A stretch of DNA of 64,000 nt from a virus, in IMG/VR virus record IMGVR_UViG_3300025141_014981, positions 12,290-76,289 of that record; one strand, written 5' to 3'. The first letter of the stretch is position 1, and each line of letters starts with the position of its first letter. Shown one piece after another: positions 46,185 to 56,939 of the stretch. The notes below the pieces were generated by a model. That model ran no database searches. It was not told the origin of the DNA and saw only the letters and a list, made by a program, of their open reading frames with translations. The position numbers and the translations under genes are program-made.

Positions 46185-46889
46185 TCAGATGTTGACATAT
46201 TTTTCAATATACTCTCTGTCTTGTGAGAAGATAGGAATTCCAAGGTCACACTTCCAAGCTCCATTGTCATCTTTTATAATACATGTACCACGCTTTTGCC
46301 ATATATGACAATCATTCCAGTTAATTTTGTGTTCTGAATGAAGTTTTTCTTGAAGCTTTGTACCATTTAACCCTTGTAGCTCTTTATGTGAAAAGAAGCT
46401 TCTTGCTAATGACTGAATGCTGTTTTTTGTTGCATCTTGCTGACGCCATAAGAAGTAATTAGTCACTTCTTCTCTTGGAAGAACAAAGCACCTGCTATCA
46501 AATGTTGGTCGGTCGGCACATCTATTTGCAATAAATGCTGCAGTTGCAATGCTTGCTGAGACAGATGCAATCTTTTGTGTGTTTTTACCAAACCATGGTT
46601 GAGTATTTAAGTTTTTGTAATCTTGTACAAGAATGCTGATTTCATCACTTTGTGTGTACGCAAATTGTGCACCAGCAATCTCTTTACAAAGTGCTTTAGC
46701 TGTTTCACACATTACATTATGAACACTTGCATCCCATGGTTTTTCTGCATCTCGTAATAATGTATGAAATGCGCGCCCATCAATACGAATAATCATTGGT
46801 GTGCGTAAAGTCAAAAACATCTTTGAAGCACTTTCATAACACTTCATGCGCTCCCCCAATGAATTACGAGTATTTTGTTTTTTACACAT
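46185..46889 (-). CDS. tRNA(His) guanylyltransferase Thg1-like protein
   Basis: RMK.YE, IRIDGRAFH, YTQSDEIS, FDSR, YFLWRQQDA.KNS, KRG. Confidence 0.92.
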   Translation of the reverse strand: MCKKQNTRNSLGERMKCYESASKMFLTLRTPMIIRIDGRAFHTLLRDAEKPWDASVHNVMCETAKALCKEIAGAQFAYTQSDEISILVQDYKNLNTQPWFGKNTQKIASVSASIATAAFIANRCADRPTFDSRCFVLPREEVTNYFLWRQQDATKNSIQSLARSFFSHKELQGLNGTKLQEKLHSEHKINWNDCHIWQKRGTCIIKDDNGAWKCDLGIPIFSQDREYIEKYVNI

Positions 46890-47712: not shown

Positions 47713-47981
47713 TAAATGCTTTCTAGTTTGTGGGCCAAAGTACAACAACAGGTTCTGTGTCTTCTTTATCTATCTCACAATCTTCAAGATCTTCTTCATC
47801 ATATACATCACCATACCATGAGGTATTTGCAATATAGAATAAGCCATCACTTGGTTCATAGCACGGCGAAAATGAATTTCCTTCACTATCTTTCGAAAGA
47901 ACAACTAGGGGATCATCATCACGCTTGTTAGCAATGCCCCTTAGTTGTTTTATTAATTCACTTAACTTCATTTGGCTTTAC

Positions 47982-49562
47982 TCAATCTCTTGAGAAATCA
48001 GAGATGATCTTTGGAGTTGCTGTGTCAAATCCAACAACATCTAACATTCCTGCATCTTTTGGATCAGCAATTGTACGATAACTACTTATCATGCCAACAA
48101 CTACCAACTTAGCTGGGATACCCATCTTTTGGCGATACTCTTGTAGAGCTTGTGTTGGGTGAACATCACCATACCAAGTCTCACTATCTGTGTAGATAAC
48201 AAATGTATCAACAGGCACTTTCTTTTTCAAAGCGTCAATCATTGGAAGTGCACAATCTGTACCACCCATTCTAACTTTTTCAGTTGCACGCACTGCATCA
48301 TCTAGTCTTTGACGCGGCGAGATATTCACCGGTACCATACCATCACTAAATCCAGCAATATGCCAGTTTTGCTCAGTTGCAGCAGTGATCAACGCCATCG
48401 CTGCAGTACCAACTCTTGGAGTCAACCCAGGTATACCTGCAATATTTCCCCAAGTCATTGATCCTGATACATCTAGACCTAAGTAGAATCTCTTACCAGT
48501 TGGTTCAACATTCTGAAATGTCTTGTAGAATGCACCATCAAGTGCATCAACAATCCCAGTCACAGGATTCCATGACAACTTGCCCTTGATGCCTCGACCA
48601 TTTTCATAAGTCTTTAGTGCTGACAAAATTTGTATTGGATGTACTCTGCCCCTACGTAAGAGATCTTCATTCGCTAATGAATTGACTACATGCTGTGTAG
48701 CATCATTGAGTGAATCTAACAATCCAATGCTTGTCATCTTACCTAGATTACGAACCATAGCTGTGATTGGCATGTGCTTTAGAAGCGCGCCCCAAACATC
48801 TGCATCATTTAAGAACTCAGTTGGTACACACTCTCGTGGTAGATTATGATTGCTAATTAGATCAACAACTTCATTCTTGTTAGTCGCTACTTGAATACGA
48901 TTGAACGCATCAACAATAGTACTATCACATGCCTTACCTTGGGTCACCCAATTGTACAACGCTTGGTGCTCATCTGTTGAGGCTTTAGGATGTGCCAGCC
49001 GTAATAGATCTCTATGTGACCAACCATTTCTTTGACGATACTTTACAAGTTGATATGATAATCTATCAGTATCTTTGTCATTATACCAGTTTGTAACAGC
49101 TGTTCTCAGCGCACGACCCCAACCTCTGAATTGCTCAACGAATCCTGCAAAGTTGAATAGATGTGTGCCAATACGGGCTACTTTTGGTAATGCTTCAAGA
49201 GCGGCCTTACGTGTTTCTAAGCTATCTGCAGCTGCACAAAGTGCCAAAGCAAACAACGCTGTGTCATTTTTTGGTGCTCGACCATTGACACTAATATCAA
49301 CAATTGCATTAACAGTACGCAGCCCATCAGAGTTGATACAACGTAACACTGCTTCTGCGTTTTCTTTTGTCAGTTGTGTTTGTCCCACGTAGTAAGATCC
49401 ACCTTCTGTGCCAAGAATCAAGAATCTTTCTAAGCGCTTCCAGTCGTCAATCTCAAATGAGAAACCACCAGCTGCATTTCTACTCATGTCACTACGACCA
49501 GGAATTGGTTGTGACTGAGATGTTCTTTTTGTGCTAAAACTTTTAAGATGTGATGTGCTCAT
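47982..49562 (-). CDS. rsr: Ro60 (TROVE + vWA) RNA-binding protein
   Basis: NAAGGFSF, LERFLILGTEGGSYY, KYRQRNGWSHRDLLRLAHP, MP.TAMVRNLGKMT, DVSGSM, GGTDCALPM, VVGFD; ATG at 49562 has a GGAAGGGAG SD. Confidence 0.95.
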   Translation of the reverse strand: MSTSHLKSFSTKRTSQSQPIPGRSDMSRNAAGGFSFEIDDWKRLERFLILGTEGGSYYVGQTQLTKENAEAVLRCINSDGLRTVNAIVDISVNGRAPKNDTALFALALCAAADSLETRKAALEALPKVARIGTHLFNFAGFVEQFRGWGRALRTAVTNWYNDKDTDRLSYQLVKYRQRNGWSHRDLLRLAHPKASTDEHQALYNWVTQGKACDSTIVDAFNRIQVATNKNEVVDLISNHNLPRECVPTEFLNDADVWGALLKHMPITAMVRNLGKMTSIGLLDSLNDATQHVVNSLANEDLLRRGRVHPIQILSALKTYENGRGIKGKLSWNPVTGIVDALDGAFYKTFQNVEPTGKRFYLGLDVSGSMTWGNIAGIPGLTPRVGTAAMALITAATEQNWHIAGFSDGMVPVNISPRQRLDDAVRATEKVRMGGTDCALPMIDALKKKVPVDTFVIYTDSETWYGDVHPTQALQEYRQKMGIPAKLVVVGMISSYRTIADPKDAGMLDVVGFDTATPKIISDFSRD

Positions 49563-49590
49563 TTTAAATCTCCCTTCCTTCAAAATCAAA

Positions 49591-49695
49591 AAGTGGTCAA
49601 GTTATGACATCGAGTAGTTTGGCTCCACAGCCCAAGGAGGAATCGAACCCCACTTTTTCCATTCAAAAAGATAACCGATAATCTCCGGCCCACTT
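49591..49695 (-). ncRNA. Y RNA-like copy D (Ro stem + T-arm + acceptor-like hairpin)
   Basis: AAGUGGGCCGGAG-N6-GGUUAUC ... ACUUGACCACUU; internal GGGG-UUCGAUU-CCUC T-arm. Confidence 0.8.
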
Positions 49696-49790
49696 AGATG
49701 CTGTTCTAAGATTTGAACTTAGATCTACCCGGCCAGGCAGCAATAAGAGCATAAATTATTTTAAGTCGCTCGCTCAAGACGACAGAAAGA

Positions 49791-49944
49791 TTGGGGCAAG
49801 TTTATGAAACTCGGGATAATATGACTTTTGCTCTGCCACTGAGCTACATGAACTGTTATAACTATAAGTCAACAATTCATAGCTGGATTCGAACCAGCGT
49901 CCCAAAGTTGGTTGTTTATGATAACCGTGCCTCTTCGGCCCCAA
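49791..49944 (-). ncRNA. yrlA: YrlA-type Y RNA copy C with complete permuted tRNA domain
   Basis: UUGGGGCCGAAG-N6-GGUUAUC; T-arm GCUGG-UUCGAAU-CCAGC, loop-closed acceptor stem, D-arm UAGCUCAGUGGCAGAGC; 3' ACUUGCCCCAA. Confidence 0.9.
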
Positions 49945-49956
49945 ATTTAAGAAACG

Positions 49957-50044
49957 TATGGGCAAATAGTGAAAATTGTCTGTGGAATCGAACCACTAGG
50001 ACGTAGTCCCATCAAACTAGATAACCAAATTTCTTCGGCCCATA
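49957..50044 (-). ncRNA. Y RNA-like copy B (Ro stem + hairpin + T-arm)
   Basis: UAUGGGCCGAAG-N6-GGUUAUC; GUGG-UUCGAUU-CCAC; 3' AUUUGCCCAUA. Confidence 0.8.
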
Positions 50045-50053
50045 TAATAATTG

Positions 50054-50114
50054 AGGGCAAGTAAGTGCGTTATGGGAGTGTCGTTATAAAGATAACCCAA
50101 GATGCTCCGGCCCT
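50054..50114 (-). ncRNA. Minimal Y RNA-like copy A (Ro stem only)
   Basis: AGGGCCGGAG-N7-GGUUAUC ... ACUUGCCCU; no T-loop. Confidence 0.7.
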
Positions 50115-50385
50115 ACAAATTTTTAAACTGTATTGTTAATGATCAAACCCTTTATTGTGATGACCTTACTATAATAACATCAAGACTTTGTTTGTACACC
50201 AAAAAATCAATTAAGTTGTTTTTTATACTGCTCAACAATTCCGGAATCAATATCACATCTTTGATGTTTACAAGCTGGCATCTTACAATTTATCCTCTGG
50301 TTACCATTATAAGTATTACATGCACAACAACCCCACCCTGGCATCAGGTTTGGATGCTCGAGCTTTATGCACTTTTCATGTTTTT

Positions 50386-50931
50386 TCATAGCTTATTTGT
50401 TGCACCACGTTTCAAAAGAAGCTCAAGAATCTTTTCTTCATCACCACCAGACTTAAACATCTCAGCTAGCGTATGTGCAAGCTCAGCTTCATCAGAGTCG
50501 AATTCATTAAGTGAATTAACTCTCAAAGTCTTCTCTTTAATCACAGATGCCAACTTTGTAGCTTCTTCTACAAGAGCTGCTGCTCTTTTCTCATCGTTAT
50601 TAATTTCTGCTTGAAGACTAGCTACTTTTCGTTGTCTAGGTGACAAGCCATTATATGTATCATCAATAAGCTCTAAGCAGGTATGTGTTGTTACCTTTAC
50701 TATTGAACCAACCTTTAACTTAGTACAAGAAAATTGATTAAGCACAGGCATTTCTACTATTTTATATTTTGTAAAACGACCCCATGCTTTATTATCTATG
50801 CTTATACATTCAAGAATAGTTCCCTTTGAAAGTTGCGCCACTGTATTATCACAATCAAGTTTGACATCATAATAATTTGGTGAACGCTTAGCTCGGTATA
50901 AGCAACCTACAATTGCATCTGAAAATTTCAT
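50386..50931 (-). CDS. Hypothetical protein with C-terminal coiled coil
   Basis: 181-aa ORF downstream of a promoter motif. Confidence 0.5.
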   Translation of the reverse strand: MKFSDAIVGCLYRAKRSPNYYDVKLDCDNTVAQLSKGTILECISIDNKAWGRFTKYKIVEMPVLNQFSCTKLKVGSIVKVTTHTCLELIDDTYNGLSPRQRKVASLQAEINNDEKRAAALVEEATKLASVIKEKTLRVNSLNEFDSDEAELAHTLAEMFKSGGDEEKILELLLKRGATNKL

Positions 50932-53417: not shown

Positions 53418-54044
53418 CTATGTATATATGCAACTTTCTAATTGCACCCATAATTCACATTCAGTATCTTCTATTGTTCTATTATTCTCTAAATAAATCA
53501 ATGCGTGCTCTCCATCAATATAGTATTCTGTAATTGGTGCAATGTTATCAACATATCCTTTGATGCGCGCTAATATTGCTGTTTCATTGTCATCAACACG
53601 CTTGCTTAAGCTCCCTCCACATTCACAAATATCATCACTTGTACAGTGTGACTGCTTACAGGTAACACAAACTTTTCTAGATAATAGGCGCTCTACAATT
53701 GCATCATGTTCTAGATCTATCTTGACAACTACATCGATGTTTATAATCGAATCAAGATCAACTGCTTGTTGCAATCTTCTAGGATAGCCATCAAGTATGA
53801 CGCCTTCATTACAATCACTTCTAGATAATCTATCAGAGACAATCTTGATTAACGTCTCATTAGAGATCAGCAAGCCATTGTCAATCTTTGACTTTATCTC
53901 TTTTCCCAAATCTGTATCTTCTTGTGAATACTCTCTTAGTATCTCACCGGTCGATACGTGTGGAATATTCAAGCGCTTCGAAAGCAGTTGAGCTTGTGTT
54001 CCTTTACCGGCCCCTGGTGGTCCCAAGAAGACTATATTCATCAA
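53418..54044 (-). CDS. adk: Adenylate kinase
   Basis: GPPGAGKGTQA, HVSTGEILR, LDGYPR, Cys-type lid, RVDDNE. Confidence 0.93.
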   Translation of the reverse strand: MMNIVFLGPPGAGKGTQAQLLSKRLNIPHVSTGEILREYSQEDTDLGKEIKSKIDNGLLISNETLIKIVSDRLSRSDCNEGVILDGYPRRLQQAVDLDSIINIDVVVKIDLEHDAIVERLLSRKVCVTCKQSHCTSDDICECGGSLSKRVDDNETAILARIKGYVDNIAPITEYYIDGEHALIYLENNRTIEDTECELWVQLESCIYT

Positions 54045-55879: not shown

Positions 55880-56302
55880 TCAAGTGTCACTATTTTCTTC
55901 TTTTAGTTTCTGAAAATACTTTCTTGTATGTTCTGCACAATCAATTTTCAATGCTTCATCTACTGTGAAAAATCCTGCACCAGCACCCTCATGTAAATTA
56001 AAAGACAACCATTCAATTGTGCGATTCAATTTGAAAAAACTCGCTAAAGAACCATTGACAACATCTGTGTATAGAAATGTGATATCATCACGATATATGT
56101 GTATATCTAGTTCTTCATCTAACTCAATGATCATTGTAAGCTCTGGATCGTGACCTTCGGTCGCGCCACCAAAGAATGACCATTTGAGTGGATTGAATAT
56201 TCCCTCATTATCATCACGCATTTGTAACAGGTATTTACCTGCGCTATTTTGTATTACACAGCAGGCACCTTTTATTTCATCATTTGAGTTCATCATACTC
56301 AT
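55880..56302 (-). CDS. Nudix hydrolase (divergent box)
   Basis: YLLQMRDD, WSFFGG..E......ELDEEL. Confidence 0.75.
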   Translation of the reverse strand: MSMMNSNDEIKGACCVIQNSAGKYLLQMRDDNEGIFNPLKWSFFGGATEGHDPELTMIIELDEELDIHIYRDDITFLYTDVVNGSLASFFKLNRTIEWLSFNLHEGAGAGFFTVDEALKIDCAEHTRKYFQKLKEENSDT

Positions 56303-56939
56303 CAGGTAATTCTCCTTTCAACCTATTCAACCATGCTCTTGTCTTTACTTTACGCATCCACAGATCATGACCATGTCCACCCTTACATACAACACCTTCA
56401 TGAGTGACAGGGTATTTCCCATCCAACATATCTTCAATGAATGATTTGTTCAAGTTGCCTGTGTAAATCACTTCTGGTATATCTAAGCTACCAAATAGCT
56501 GAATAAACTCTTTAGGTCCAATGATCCCATGCTTATGTATACACACATCAAAGAGCACCAGTTTCTTTTCATCTTCTGGATCATGATATCCTGCAAATGA
56601 ATTCCTTCCAAAGAATTCACAAAACGCCGTAATACTTTGTGTGCTTCTATATTTCTTGTGCTTTCCAATTATTTTCTGCACACTTTCAGCAAATGTGTTC
56701 TCGAAGATAGAGATTGCTTCACCAAAGTCTGGATCAGAAGCATCGAATAAGCGCCTACGTGTTCCAAACTTATACCACCCACGTTTTCGTGACCATTCAA
56801 AGCGTAAGTTGCTTCCATCTAATTTGTCAAAAGCTATACAATGTTTATTGGGTGCTTTTTGTGGCCCTAATATAGTTGGGTAAGTTTTTATTTTAATTCT
56901 GCGTATTGTTGCTTCTTGTATACACCAGTCGATGCACAT
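56280..56939 (-). CDS. RNA ligase-like nucleotidyltransferase
   Basis: YPTI, FDKLDGSN, FGTR, FCEFFG, LFDV, EGVVCK, KVKT; true start uncertain (overlaps the upstream ORF). Confidence 0.7.
   Translation of the reverse strand: MCIDWCIQEATIRRIKIKTYPTILGPQKAPNKHCIAFDKLDGSNLRFEWSRKRGWYKFGTRRRLFDASDPDFGEAISIFENTFAESVQKIIGKHKKYRSTQSITAFCEFFGRNSFAGYHDPEDEKKLVLFDVCIHKHGIIGPKEFIQLFGSLDIPEVIYTGNLNKSFIEDMLDGKYPVTHEGVVCKGGHGHDLWMRKVKTRAWLNRLKGELPDEYDELK

What the first reader, a model, noticed from the sequence alone, without database searches (positions are those of the whole stretch)
47982..50114. Phage Ro60 preceded by a tandem array of four modular Y RNAs: one Ro-binding stem, four different tRNA-mimic cargoes
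Seen: four minus-strand units (50054-50114, 49957-50044, 49791-49944, 49591-49695) directly upstream of the Ro60 start. Each begins GGGCCG(A/G)AG-N6/7-GGUUAUC and ends (C/U)UUG(C/A)CC. The outermost base pairs differ between copies but stay complementary (AAGU/ACUU, UUG/CAA, UAU/AUA, A/U), i.e. covariation within the array. Interiors differ: no insert; hairpin + T-arm; a full circularly permuted tRNA (T-arm, loop-closed acceptor, D-arm, anticodon stem running into the Ro stem); T-arm + acceptor-like hairpin. Established: Ro60 binds a bulged-C helix formed by Y RNA 5' and 3' ends, and bacterial YrlA RNAs contain a permuted tRNA domain and lie beside rsr. Inference: a constant-handle/variable-cargo RNA library that gives one phage Ro60 several RNPs, e.g. 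anticodon-less decoys for host tRNA-targeting defences or adaptors for PNPase and repair enzymes. I cannot tell whether such a graded four-copy array has been described.
Basis: partly seen in the sequence, partly recalled or inferred. Interest (0 to 1): 0.9.

Follow-up and report, generated by a model that had tools for sequence, protein, structure and literature searches.

The report
Four Y RNAs beside phage Ro60
A marine phage carries four small RNA genes just upstream of its Ro60 gene; they share one Ro60-binding stem and carry different tRNA-like inserts, a real arrangement but a common one beside Ro60 genes in phages and bacteria.

Summary
Four minus-strand units at about 50118-50051, 50046-49955, 49946-49791 and 49697-49591 share the handle GGCCGRAG-N6/7-GGUUAUC (4 matches, 0 expected by chance) and end in YUUGMCC. 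They lie directly upstream of a TROVE+vWA Ro60 gene (47982-49562). In related loci the terminal bulged-C helix and an upper stem both covary. Unit 3 matches the tRNA-like core of Rfam YrlA, below its threshold. Unit 1 is a minimal Y RNA that weakly matches the nematode sbRNA model, and a sister unit in another phage matches vertebrate Y_RNA.

These are therefore Y RNAs of the YrlA/YrlB kind. The constant-handle, variable-module idea is the established model for Y RNAs. Arrays are routine. Among 67 phage and 78 bacterial Ro60 loci sampled by protein homology alone, about 40% have at least 2 handles upstream, about 25% at least 3 and about 9% at least 4, with a maximum of 7-8. Mycobacteriophage HyRo has three. 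Earlier notes of this scan report the same arrangement on other DNA.

Verdict: a new member of a known kind. Two residual points of interest: I found no paper describing arrays this large, and the phage handle includes the UUAUC motif so far discussed only for animal Y RNAs and sbRNAs. Expression and Ro60 binding are untested.

The parts
47982..49562 (-). Ro60 (Rsr-like) gene, 526 aa, TROVE + vWA domains with a DxSxS MIDAS motif
   Evidence: Pfam TROVE E 1.9e-48 and vWA_Ro60 E 4.5e-64. PHROG 850 RNA-binding protein E 5.4e-93. PDB Ro60 chains 9nen, 1yvp and 2nvo, E 1e-124 to 1e-133.
49591..49697 (-). Y RNA unit 4: handle, T-arm (GGUUCGAUUCC) and an acceptor-like hairpin. The lower stem has one G.A mismatch. 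The unit ends about 28 nt before the Ro60 ATG.
   Evidence: Handle match. T-loop match to the tmRNA/tRNA T-arm. Partial hit of model R1, 14.9 bits, E 0.32. Sequence read.
49697..49784 (-). Spacer element without a handle: a 5-bp stem (UGCUG/CAGCA) enclosing a small hairpin and a T-arm-like hairpin (CUAAG-UUCAAAU-CUUAG). Possibly a decayed tRNA or a processing signal; uncertain.
   Evidence: Fold. ARAGORN calls it only at a lowered threshold. No Rfam hit.
49791..49946 (-). Y RNA unit 3, YrlA type: handle plus a circularly permuted tRNA-like domain (T-arm, closed acceptor hairpin, D-arm)
   Evidence: Rfam YrlA RF02553 over 49826-49906, model positions 23-85, 27.7 bits, E 0.0013, below the gathering score of 69. 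Handle match.
49955..50046 (-). Y RNA unit 2: handle, small hairpin and T-arm
   Evidence: Model R1 27.9 bits, E 8.4e-5, full length. T-loop match. Handle match.
50051..50118 (-). Y RNA unit 1: minimal stem-bulge-stem Y RNA with no tRNA-like insert
   Evidence: Model R1 52.4 bits, E 1.6e-11; this unit is one of the 20 sequences R1 was built from, so its score is by construction. Rfam nematode sbRNA RF01656 27.3 bits, E 2.7e-4, end to end.
50171..50198 (-). Candidate sigma-70-type promoter for the array (TGTACA-16-TATTAT with an extended TG), about 50 nt upstream of unit 1
   Evidence: Consensus scan only: 4 sites found against 2.2 expected. Weak evidence.

Best explanation
The four units are Y RNA genes of the bacterial/phage YrlA/YrlB kind. 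They are probably transcribed with, or just ahead of, the phage Ro60 gene as one precursor and then trimmed to discrete RNAs. In each RNA the 5' and 3' ends pair into a lower stem with a bulged C and the CG(A/G)A motif. An asymmetric internal loop follows, then an upper stem ending in GG(G)/CC(C), and the loop opens with UUAUC. This constant part is the Ro60 docking site (inferred from homology to studied Y RNAs). The variable part differs in each unit: nothing in unit 1, hairpin + T-arm in unit 2, a whole permuted tRNA mimic in unit 3, and T-arm + acceptor-like hairpin in unit 4. So one Ro60 ring can form several ribonucleoproteins (RNPs). By analogy with Deinococcus, Salmonella and Thermus phage phiLo, I infer that these RNPs tether or gate host 3'-5' exoribonucleases such as PNPase and engage enzymes that recognise tRNA. 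That would let the phage steer structured-RNA and tRNA turnover during infection. The locus lies in a tRNA and RNA-repair island with ten tRNA genes, a Thg1-like enzyme and an RNA ligase. What is shown here: the sequences, the conserved handle, covariation of both stems, linkage to Ro60, and recurrence in many genomes. What is inferred: transcription, processing, Ro60 binding and the partners of each module.
For: - Handle: 4 copies against 0 expected by chance.
- Ro60 identity.
- Unit 3 aligns to the YrlA tRNA-like core.
- Unit 1 and a sister unit align end to end to the sbRNA and vertebrate Y_RNA models.
- Lower-stem covariation with the 3' end chosen by motif only: 85% and 76% pairing at the first two variable positions, with all four Watson-Crick types; overall 0.58 against 0.418+-0.028 for shuffled partners.
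- MAFFT/RNAalifold: 4 of 6 lower-stem pairs show compensatory changes.
- Model-based alignment of 68 units: 85.7% of cells paired against 66.2% shuffled and 39-52% slid; 13 of 16 pairs show double changes.
- The same handle precedes YrlA-type and short units upstream of Ro60 in Mycobacterium phage HyRo (3 units) and Gordonia phage BearBQ (2 units).
- Handles lie almost only on the Ro60 strand: 94 upstream and 18 downstream against 3 on the opposite strand in phages, and 1 on the opposite strand in bacteria.
- Literature: the GNCGAA(N)G motif, and YrlA+YrlB processed from one precursor upstream of rsr in M. smegmatis (PMC4201824). phiLo Ro60 binds two upstream Yrl RNAs, and mutations in CGAA weaken binding (PMC12135203).
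- Context genes.
Against: - There is no expression or binding data. No RNA run holds this sequence.
- Matches to Rfam YrlA, sbRNA and Y_RNA are all below their gathering scores (27.7/69, 27.3/38, 23.8/38).
- Thermodynamic folds of the single units are not better than shuffles (z -0.06 to -2.15), and minimum-free-energy folding does not recover the T-arms.
- Units 1 and 4 carry CGGA rather than the published CGAA.
- Unit 4 has a G.A mismatch in the lower stem and only a partial hit to the short-class model.
- The alignment used was fitted to the model structure, which inflates pairing.
- The partner assignment (PNPase, tRNA enzymes) rests on analogy only.
Confidence: 0.85

Rival explanations
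1. The tRNA-like modules act mainly as uncleavable decoys or competitive inhibitors of host tRNA-targeting defence nucleases (anticodon nucleases and similar). Ro60 serves as a stabilising chaperone. This makes the array a counter-defence library.
For: Units 2-4 carry T-arms, and unit 3 carries T + acceptor + D arms but no anticodon loop. The locus sits among phage tRNA genes, a Thg1-like 5'-end repair enzyme and an RNA ligase. Hughes et al. proposed that YrlA could competitively inhibit an anticodon nuclease (PMC7790460). A Ro60-like protein of phage Bas63 was reported to counter the Ppl defence system (10.1101/2024.10.10.617714).
Against: Unit 1 and many units elsewhere have no tRNA-like part at all. 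The same arrays stand beside chromosomal rsr genes of many bacteria, where a counter-defence role is less obvious. No experiment links any Y RNA to nuclease inhibition.
Confidence: 0.15
2. The units, above all unit 4 next to the ribosome-binding site, are cis-acting Ro60 binding sites in the leader of the Ro60 mRNA and autoregulate its translation or stability. They are not free trans-acting RNAs.
For: Unit 4 ends about 28 nt before the Ro60 ATG. In many loci the last handle lies 78-150 nt before the Ro60 start. The handle of unit 4 can form an alternative hairpin followed by a U-run, which looks like a terminator.
Against: In M. smegmatis the upstream units are processed to free RNAs bound by Rsr (PMC4201824). 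Some phage loci carry the array downstream of Ro60 (L128, L129, L164, L175). Closed terminal helices with covarying ends fit excised RNAs. The terminator-like hit is barely above chance (2 found against 0.7 expected).
Confidence: 0.08
3. The units are decayed tRNA genes or chance repeats in a tRNA-rich region and have no function of their own.
For: Ten tRNA genes lie on the same strand in the window. ARAGORN calls marginal 'tRNAs' here at lowered thresholds.
Against: The handle is absent from true tRNAs. It is conserved with compensatory changes across dozens of unrelated phage and bacterial loci and is tied to Ro60 in strand and position.
Confidence: 0.02

Closest known systems
Bacterial/phage YrlA and YrlB Y RNAs with Rsr (Salmonella, M. 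smegmatis, mycobacteriophages; Chen et al. 2014, PMC4201824; Rfam RF02553)
   Same: Encoded next to Ro60 on the same strand. The G-N-CGAA-(N)-G motif lies near the 5' end within a terminal stem. One RNA carries a permuted tRNA-like domain (T-arm, closed acceptor, D-arm), and others are shorter, some with only a T-arm. In M. smegmatis several units upstream of rsr come from one precursor.
   Different: There are four units here, against the two validated per species. The Rfam YrlA model matches only the tRNA-like core and stays below threshold (27.7 against 69 bits). Two units have CGGA instead of CGAA. The host is an uncultured low-GC marine phage.
Thermus phage phiLo Ro60 with Yrl1/Yrl2 (PMC12135203; PDB 9KOP, 9L5Y)
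   Same: A phage-encoded Ro60 with Y RNA-like genes directly upstream. The stem-bulge-stem design with CGAA was shown there to matter for binding. Ternary complexes with host PNPase were reported.
   Different: phiLo has two units and no tRNA-like modules are described for them. phiLo Ro60 did not appear among the PDB sequence matches of this protein at E<=1e-5, so the proteins are distant.
Metazoan Y RNAs and nematode stem-bulge RNAs (Rfam RF00019, RF01656; PMC4726728)
   Same: Lower stem with a bulged C (GGNCCGRAG ... ACUUGNCC), an upper stem ending GGG/CCC, and the UUAUC motif at the start of the loop. End-to-end matches below the gathering scores, with significant E-values in these small targeted searches.
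   Different: Scores are below gathering thresholds. There is no Pol III context or La-binding U tail. The phage and bacterial RNAs add tRNA-like modules. The published view is that bacterial Y RNAs are not homologous to vertebrate Y RNAs.
Deinococcus radiodurans rsr locus (Yrn1, Yrn2 and further small RNAs a-d upstream of rsr)
   Same: Several small RNAs are encoded upstream of rsr. One has a tRNA-like module that tethers Rsr to PNPase (the RYPER complex).
   Different: The Deinococcus RNAs are divergent in sequence. Only two of them are accepted as Y RNAs.

Membership tests
Bacterial/phage Y RNAs (YrlA/YrlB type) | Encoded within a few kb of a Ro60/Rsr gene on the same strand | tested here: met
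   All four units lie 28-560 nt upstream of the TROVE+vWA gene on the minus strand.
Bacterial/phage Y RNAs (YrlA/YrlB type) | GNCGAA(N0-1)G motif near the 5' end, within a stem formed by the 5' and 3' ends (bulged helix) | tested here: met
   Units 2 and 3 have GCCGAAG exactly. Units 1 and 4 have GCCGGAG, a variant frequent in related loci. The terminal helix covaries.
YrlA (Rfam RF02553) | Permuted tRNA-like domain (T-arm, closed acceptor stem-loop, D-arm) scoring at or above the family gathering score | tested here: inconclusive
   Unit 3 aligns to model positions 23-85 with all three arms, but at 27.7 bits against a gathering score of 69 (E 0.0013). The accepted mycobacteriophage locus also scores only 34.3 bits.
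Bacterial/phage Y RNAs (YrlA/YrlB type) | Bound by Ro60/Rsr and dependent on it for accumulation | not testable with these tools
   This needs RIP, EMSA or a deletion strain. No RNA run holds the sequence.
Metazoan Y RNA / sbRNA (RF00019, RF01656) | Score at or above the gathering threshold of the covariance model | tested here: not met
   Unit 1 scores 27.3 bits against 38 for RF01656. Related unit L094:8983-9048 scores 28.6 against 38 (RF01656) and 23.8 against 38 (RF00019). This is resemblance, not membership.
Ro60 / TROVE protein | TROVE HEAT-repeat ring plus a C-terminal vWA domain with a MIDAS motif | tested here: met
   Both Pfam domains score above their cut-offs. DVSGS is present in the translated sequence. 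Full-length matches to solved Ro60 structures.

The most novel reading that the evidence does not exclude
The handle shared by these phage and bacterial Y RNAs may be directly homologous to animal Y RNAs and nematode sbRNAs, not merely analogous. It comprises the bulged-C lower stem, the CGRA motif, an upper stem ending GGG/CCC and the UUAUC loop start. If so, UUAUC and the upper stem would be ancient parts of the Ro60 particle, not a feature specific to eukaryotic DNA replication. Arrays of up to 7-8 such handles with graded tRNA pieces would then form a widespread, so far uncatalogued adaptor set that lets one Ro60 ring address several RNA-processing partners.
Probability: 0.35. Interest if true: 0.6.

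Novelty: new member of a known kind. Interest (0 to 1): 0.35.

Why it matters
The locus adds a clear four-gene example from an uncultured marine phage to the Ro60/Y RNA system. The comparative work also shows that multi-unit Y RNA arrays are a normal feature of Ro60 loci and that Rfam's YrlA model misses them (no hit at its threshold in 10 array-bearing loci). A dedicated handle model would allow hundreds of Y RNAs to be annotated. The near-invariant GGUUAUC next to the upper stem is also found in animal Y RNAs and sbRNAs. It gives a concrete mutational target for asking what Ro60 recognises beyond the bulged helix. The graded set of modules (none, T-arm only, T-arm + acceptor, full mimic) is a natural deletion series for asking which tRNA features recruit which partner.

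Tried and rejected
- Rfam at gathering thresholds finds only tRNAs in the window and in 10 related loci.
- Nucleotide search of GenBank phages with the locus found nothing. The protein search found 363 Ro60-encoding phages, none above 60% identity.
- Most single-copy hits of the exact handle pattern in IMG/VR (about 95 of 119 loci) have no Ro60 nearby. A 15-base pattern in a collection of that size should give that many chance matches, so I did not use them.
- MAFFT alone misaligned the 3' strand of the upper stem, so RNAalifold recovered only the lower stem. I supplied the upper stem by hand to the covariance model.
- Single-sequence folding is uninformative.
- ARAGORN at its default threshold finds no tRNA in the array. 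At lowered thresholds it gives marginal calls anchored on the T-arms.
- No RNA holder was listed among public runs.
- DNA contigs from four marine runs were identical to the window over the array, so they gave no population variants to test pairing.
- I rejected the ORFs overlapping the array (63 aa on the minus strand, 71 aa and 170 aa on the plus strand) as coding, because the conserved RNA signals explain the sequence. I did not test them further.
- The reviews by Sim & Wolin (2018) and Sim et al. (2020) are not held in the library, so I cannot exclude that they mention larger arrays or the UUAUC motif.
Full report
**1. What is there**

- The window is part of a 76-kb IMG/VR virus record that is about 40% complete. 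The phage is low in GC (about 35%) and marine: near-identical DNA occurs in several marine metagenome runs.
- I read the minus strand of 47800-50400. Each opens with GGGCCG(A/G)AG, then 6-7 nt, then GGUUAUC. Each closes with (A/C)(C/U)UUG(C/A)CC.
- The pattern GGCCGRAG-N5-8-GGTTATC is found 4 times in 64 kb, only here and only on the minus strand. None appeared in 100 shuffles.
- The ORF that follows is Ro60: Pfam TROVE and vWA_Ro60, PHROG 850, and full-length matches to solved Ro60/Rsr structures 9nen, 1yvp and 2nvo at E 1e-124 to 1e-133.
- The likely start is the ATG at 49562, behind an AAGGGAG ribosome-binding site, only about 28 nt after unit 4.

**2. Anatomy of the units**

- Unit 3 aligns to Rfam YrlA model positions 23-85: T-arm, closed acceptor hairpin and D-arm inside an enclosing stem. 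The score is 27.7 bits, E 0.0013, against a gathering score of 69. The accepted YrlA locus of Mycobacterium phage HyRo scores only 34.3 bits with the same model, so the threshold is strict for phage members.
- Units 2 and 4 contain the exact T-loop string GGUUCGAUUCC.
- Unit 1 has no insert.
- Aligning about 20 short units from other phages shows the common design:
  - a lower stem with a bulged C and the CGRA motif;
  - an asymmetric internal loop;
  - an upper stem of 6-9 bp ending GG(G)/CC(C);
  - a loop that begins with UUAUC;
  - a 3' strand ending ...AC-UUG-CYC.
- Unit 4 fits this design but has a G.A mismatch at the third lower-stem pair.

**3. Is the structure real?**

- I fixed the 3' end by motif alone (TTG or TCG plus the three conserved pairs). 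That gave 41 uniquely assigned units from Ro60-linked loci.
  - They pair at 85% and 76% at the first two variable outer positions, using all four Watson-Crick types.
  - Over six outer positions pairing is 0.58, against 0.418+-0.028 when partners are shuffled between units.
- On a plain MAFFT alignment, RNAalifold finds the lower stem, with compensatory changes at 4 of 6 pairs.
- A covariance model of the short class (R1) finds 68 units in 28 sources.
  - Window unit 1 scores 52.4 bits. It is one of the 20 sequences the model was built from, so that score is by construction.
  - Unit 2 scores 27.9 bits. Unit 4 gives a partial hit.
- On the model alignment 85.7% of cells pair, against 66.2% shuffled and 39-52% when partners are slid. 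Thirteen of 16 pairs show double changes. That alignment is fitted to the model, so it leans towards the structure. Searches do not have this bias for the lower stem.
- Single-sequence folding energies are unremarkable.

**4. How common is the arrangement?**

- Scanning IMG/VR with the exact handle returned at least 119 loci. Twenty-four of the 121 loci then held (these plus L001 and the window's own L002) encode Ro60. Most of the rest are what chance predicts for a 15-base pattern.
- In the Ro60-linked loci a relaxed handle search shows arrays of 2-8 units upstream on the Ro60 strand: L108 has 8, L090 has 7, L024 has 6-7, L017 has 5, and several have 4.
- To remove ascertainment bias I sampled Ro60 loci by protein homology only.

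| Sample | Contigs with Ro60 | Loci with >=1 kb upstream | Loci with 0/1/2/3/4/5/6/7 handles |
|---|---|---|---|
| Phage (IMG/VR) | 531 | 67 of the best 80 | 29/11/10/11/3/1/1/1 |

- In the phage sample seven further loci carry handles downstream of Ro60. Only 3 handles lie on the opposite strand, against 94 upstream.
- In the bacterial sample only 1 handle lies on the opposite strand. The loci come from Armatimonadota, Chloroflexota, Myxococcota, Actinomycetota and others.
- The regex is strict, so these counts are lower bounds.
- Cultured actinophages show the same arrangement. HyRo has three units (short, YrlA, short) and Gordonia phage BearBQ has two, both with GGCCGRNG-N6-GGUUAYC.
- Mixed modules are typical. 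In the unbiased phage sample, 38 of 94 units contain a T-arm and 20 also contain a D-arm.

**5. Relation to what is known**

- Chen et al. 2014 (PMC4201824):
  - defined the GNCGAA(N)G motif and the permuted tRNA domain;
  - reported 355 YrlAs in 254 bacteria and 22 phages, listing several per locus where present;
  - showed that M. smegmatis YrlA and YrlB, the latter with a T-arm, are cut from one precursor upstream of rsr;
  - noted four small RNAs upstream of Deinococcus rsr.
- Thermus phage phiLo Ro60 binds two upstream Yrl RNAs, depends on CGAA, and forms complexes with host PNPase (PMC12135203).
- The idea that Y RNAs are modular, with a constant Ro60-binding stem and variable effector domains, is standard (PMC4726728).
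- YrlA as a possible competitive inhibitor of an anticodon nuclease was proposed by Hughes et al. (PMC7790460).
- A Ro60-like phage protein next to tRNA genes was reported to counter the Ppl defence (10.1101/2024.10.10.617714).
- Earlier notes of this scan describe the same kind of array on other DNA. I treated them as leads only; my own samples agree with them.

**6. What may still be new**

- In the papers I could search I found no description of arrays larger than two validated units, or of their frequency. Two key reviews were not available.
- The handle resembles animal Y RNAs more closely than the literature suggests.
  - Unit 1 aligns end to end with the nematode sbRNA model RF01656: 27.3 bits, E 2.7e-4.
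  - A sister unit (L094:8983-9048) aligns with RF01656 at 28.6 bits and with vertebrate Y_RNA RF00019 at 23.8 bits, E 0.0074. It shares CCGAAGGUAGU-GGUUAU on the 5' side and ACAC-UUG-CC on the 3' side.
  - All of these scores are below gathering thresholds.
- UUAUC is described as conserved in sbRNAs and vertebrate Y RNAs and as needed for their DNA-replication activity. The same review calls bacterial Y RNAs non-homologous (PMC4726728).
- I also ascertained YrlA-type cores independently of the handle. GGTTAYC lies within 70 nt upstream of 23 of 28 permuted T-to-D cores in the phage sample, against a background of 0.023 per 70 nt.

**7. Mechanism (inferred)**

- A candidate promoter lies about 50 nt upstream of unit 1 (weak evidence).
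- The units are 5-10 nt apart, except for a 94-nt spacer between units 3 and 4. The spacer holds a T-arm-like hairpin inside a 5-bp stem.
- Unit 4 abuts the Ro60 ribosome-binding site. I therefore expect one precursor that is processed to four RNAs, each stabilised by Ro60 binding to the handle.
- The modules would recruit or gate partners: PNPase-type exonucleases by analogy with the RYPER complex and phiLo, and T-arm or tRNA-shape readers for units 2-4.
- The genomic setting fits a role in tRNA and structured-RNA maintenance during infection:
  - ten tRNA genes;
  - a Thg1-like tRNA 5'-end repair enzyme at 46185-46889;
  - an RNA ligase at 56280-56939.
- A decoy role against tRNA nucleases and a cis-regulatory role for unit 4 remain possible, and I rate both lower.

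**8. Verdict**

This is a new member of a known kind, with moderate residual interest in the size and frequency of such arrays and in the Y RNA/sbRNA-like UUAUC handle.

Noticed in passing
window 49697-49784 (-): Between units 3 and 4 lies a handle-less element: a 5-bp stem (UGCUG/CAGCA) encloses a small GC hairpin and a T-arm-like hairpin (CUAAG-UUCAAAU-CUUAG). A weak hairpin and an A/U-rich run precede it. ARAGORN calls it a tRNA only at a lowered threshold. It may be a decayed tRNA or an RNase P/Z processing signal.
   Followed up: partly
window 46185-46889 (-), 56280-56939 (-), 53418-54044 (-), 55880-56302 (-): A Thg1-like tRNA-His guanylyltransferase (Pfam Thg1 102 bits; PHROG 4717 E 1.7e-84), an RNA ligase domain protein (PF09414, 34.7 bits), an adenylate kinase and a weak NUDIX hit lie on the same strand as ten tRNA genes and the Ro60 locus. 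Together they suggest a tRNA/RNA-repair island.
   Followed up: partly
window 49673-49690 (-): The 5' handle of unit 4 can form an alternative hairpin (GGCCGG...UCGGUU) followed by AUCUUUUUGA. The consensus scan flags this as terminator-like (2 sites found against 0.7 expected).
   Followed up: no
L090:4948-5018 (-), L081:3507-3629 (+), L017:1067-1190 (-), L108:810-881 (-): In other phage arrays the Rfam tRNA model scores above threshold inside the Y RNA array. Two of these hits are about 123 nt long with large insertions. So true tRNAs or tRNA/Y RNA hybrids are interleaved with handle-bearing units.
   Followed up: no
L128, L129, L164, L175, L189 (downstream of the Ro60 match): Some phage Ro60 loci carry 2-4 handle-bearing units downstream of the gene instead of upstream.
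   Followed up: no
window 50207-50389 (-): A 60-aa cysteine-rich ORF just upstream of the array looks like a small zinc-ribbon protein. It has no Pfam or PHROG match.
   Followed up: partly
L207 (Chthonomonadaceae MAG), L257, L268, L284: Bacterial MAG contigs have 4-7 handles upstream of rsr. I did not check whether these contigs are prophages.
   Followed up: no
L001:4001-5584: This 43%-identical phage Ro60 locus showed no recognisable handle upstream, and 29 of 67 homology-sampled phage loci likewise had none. Divergent handle types probably exist that my pattern misses.
   Followed up: no
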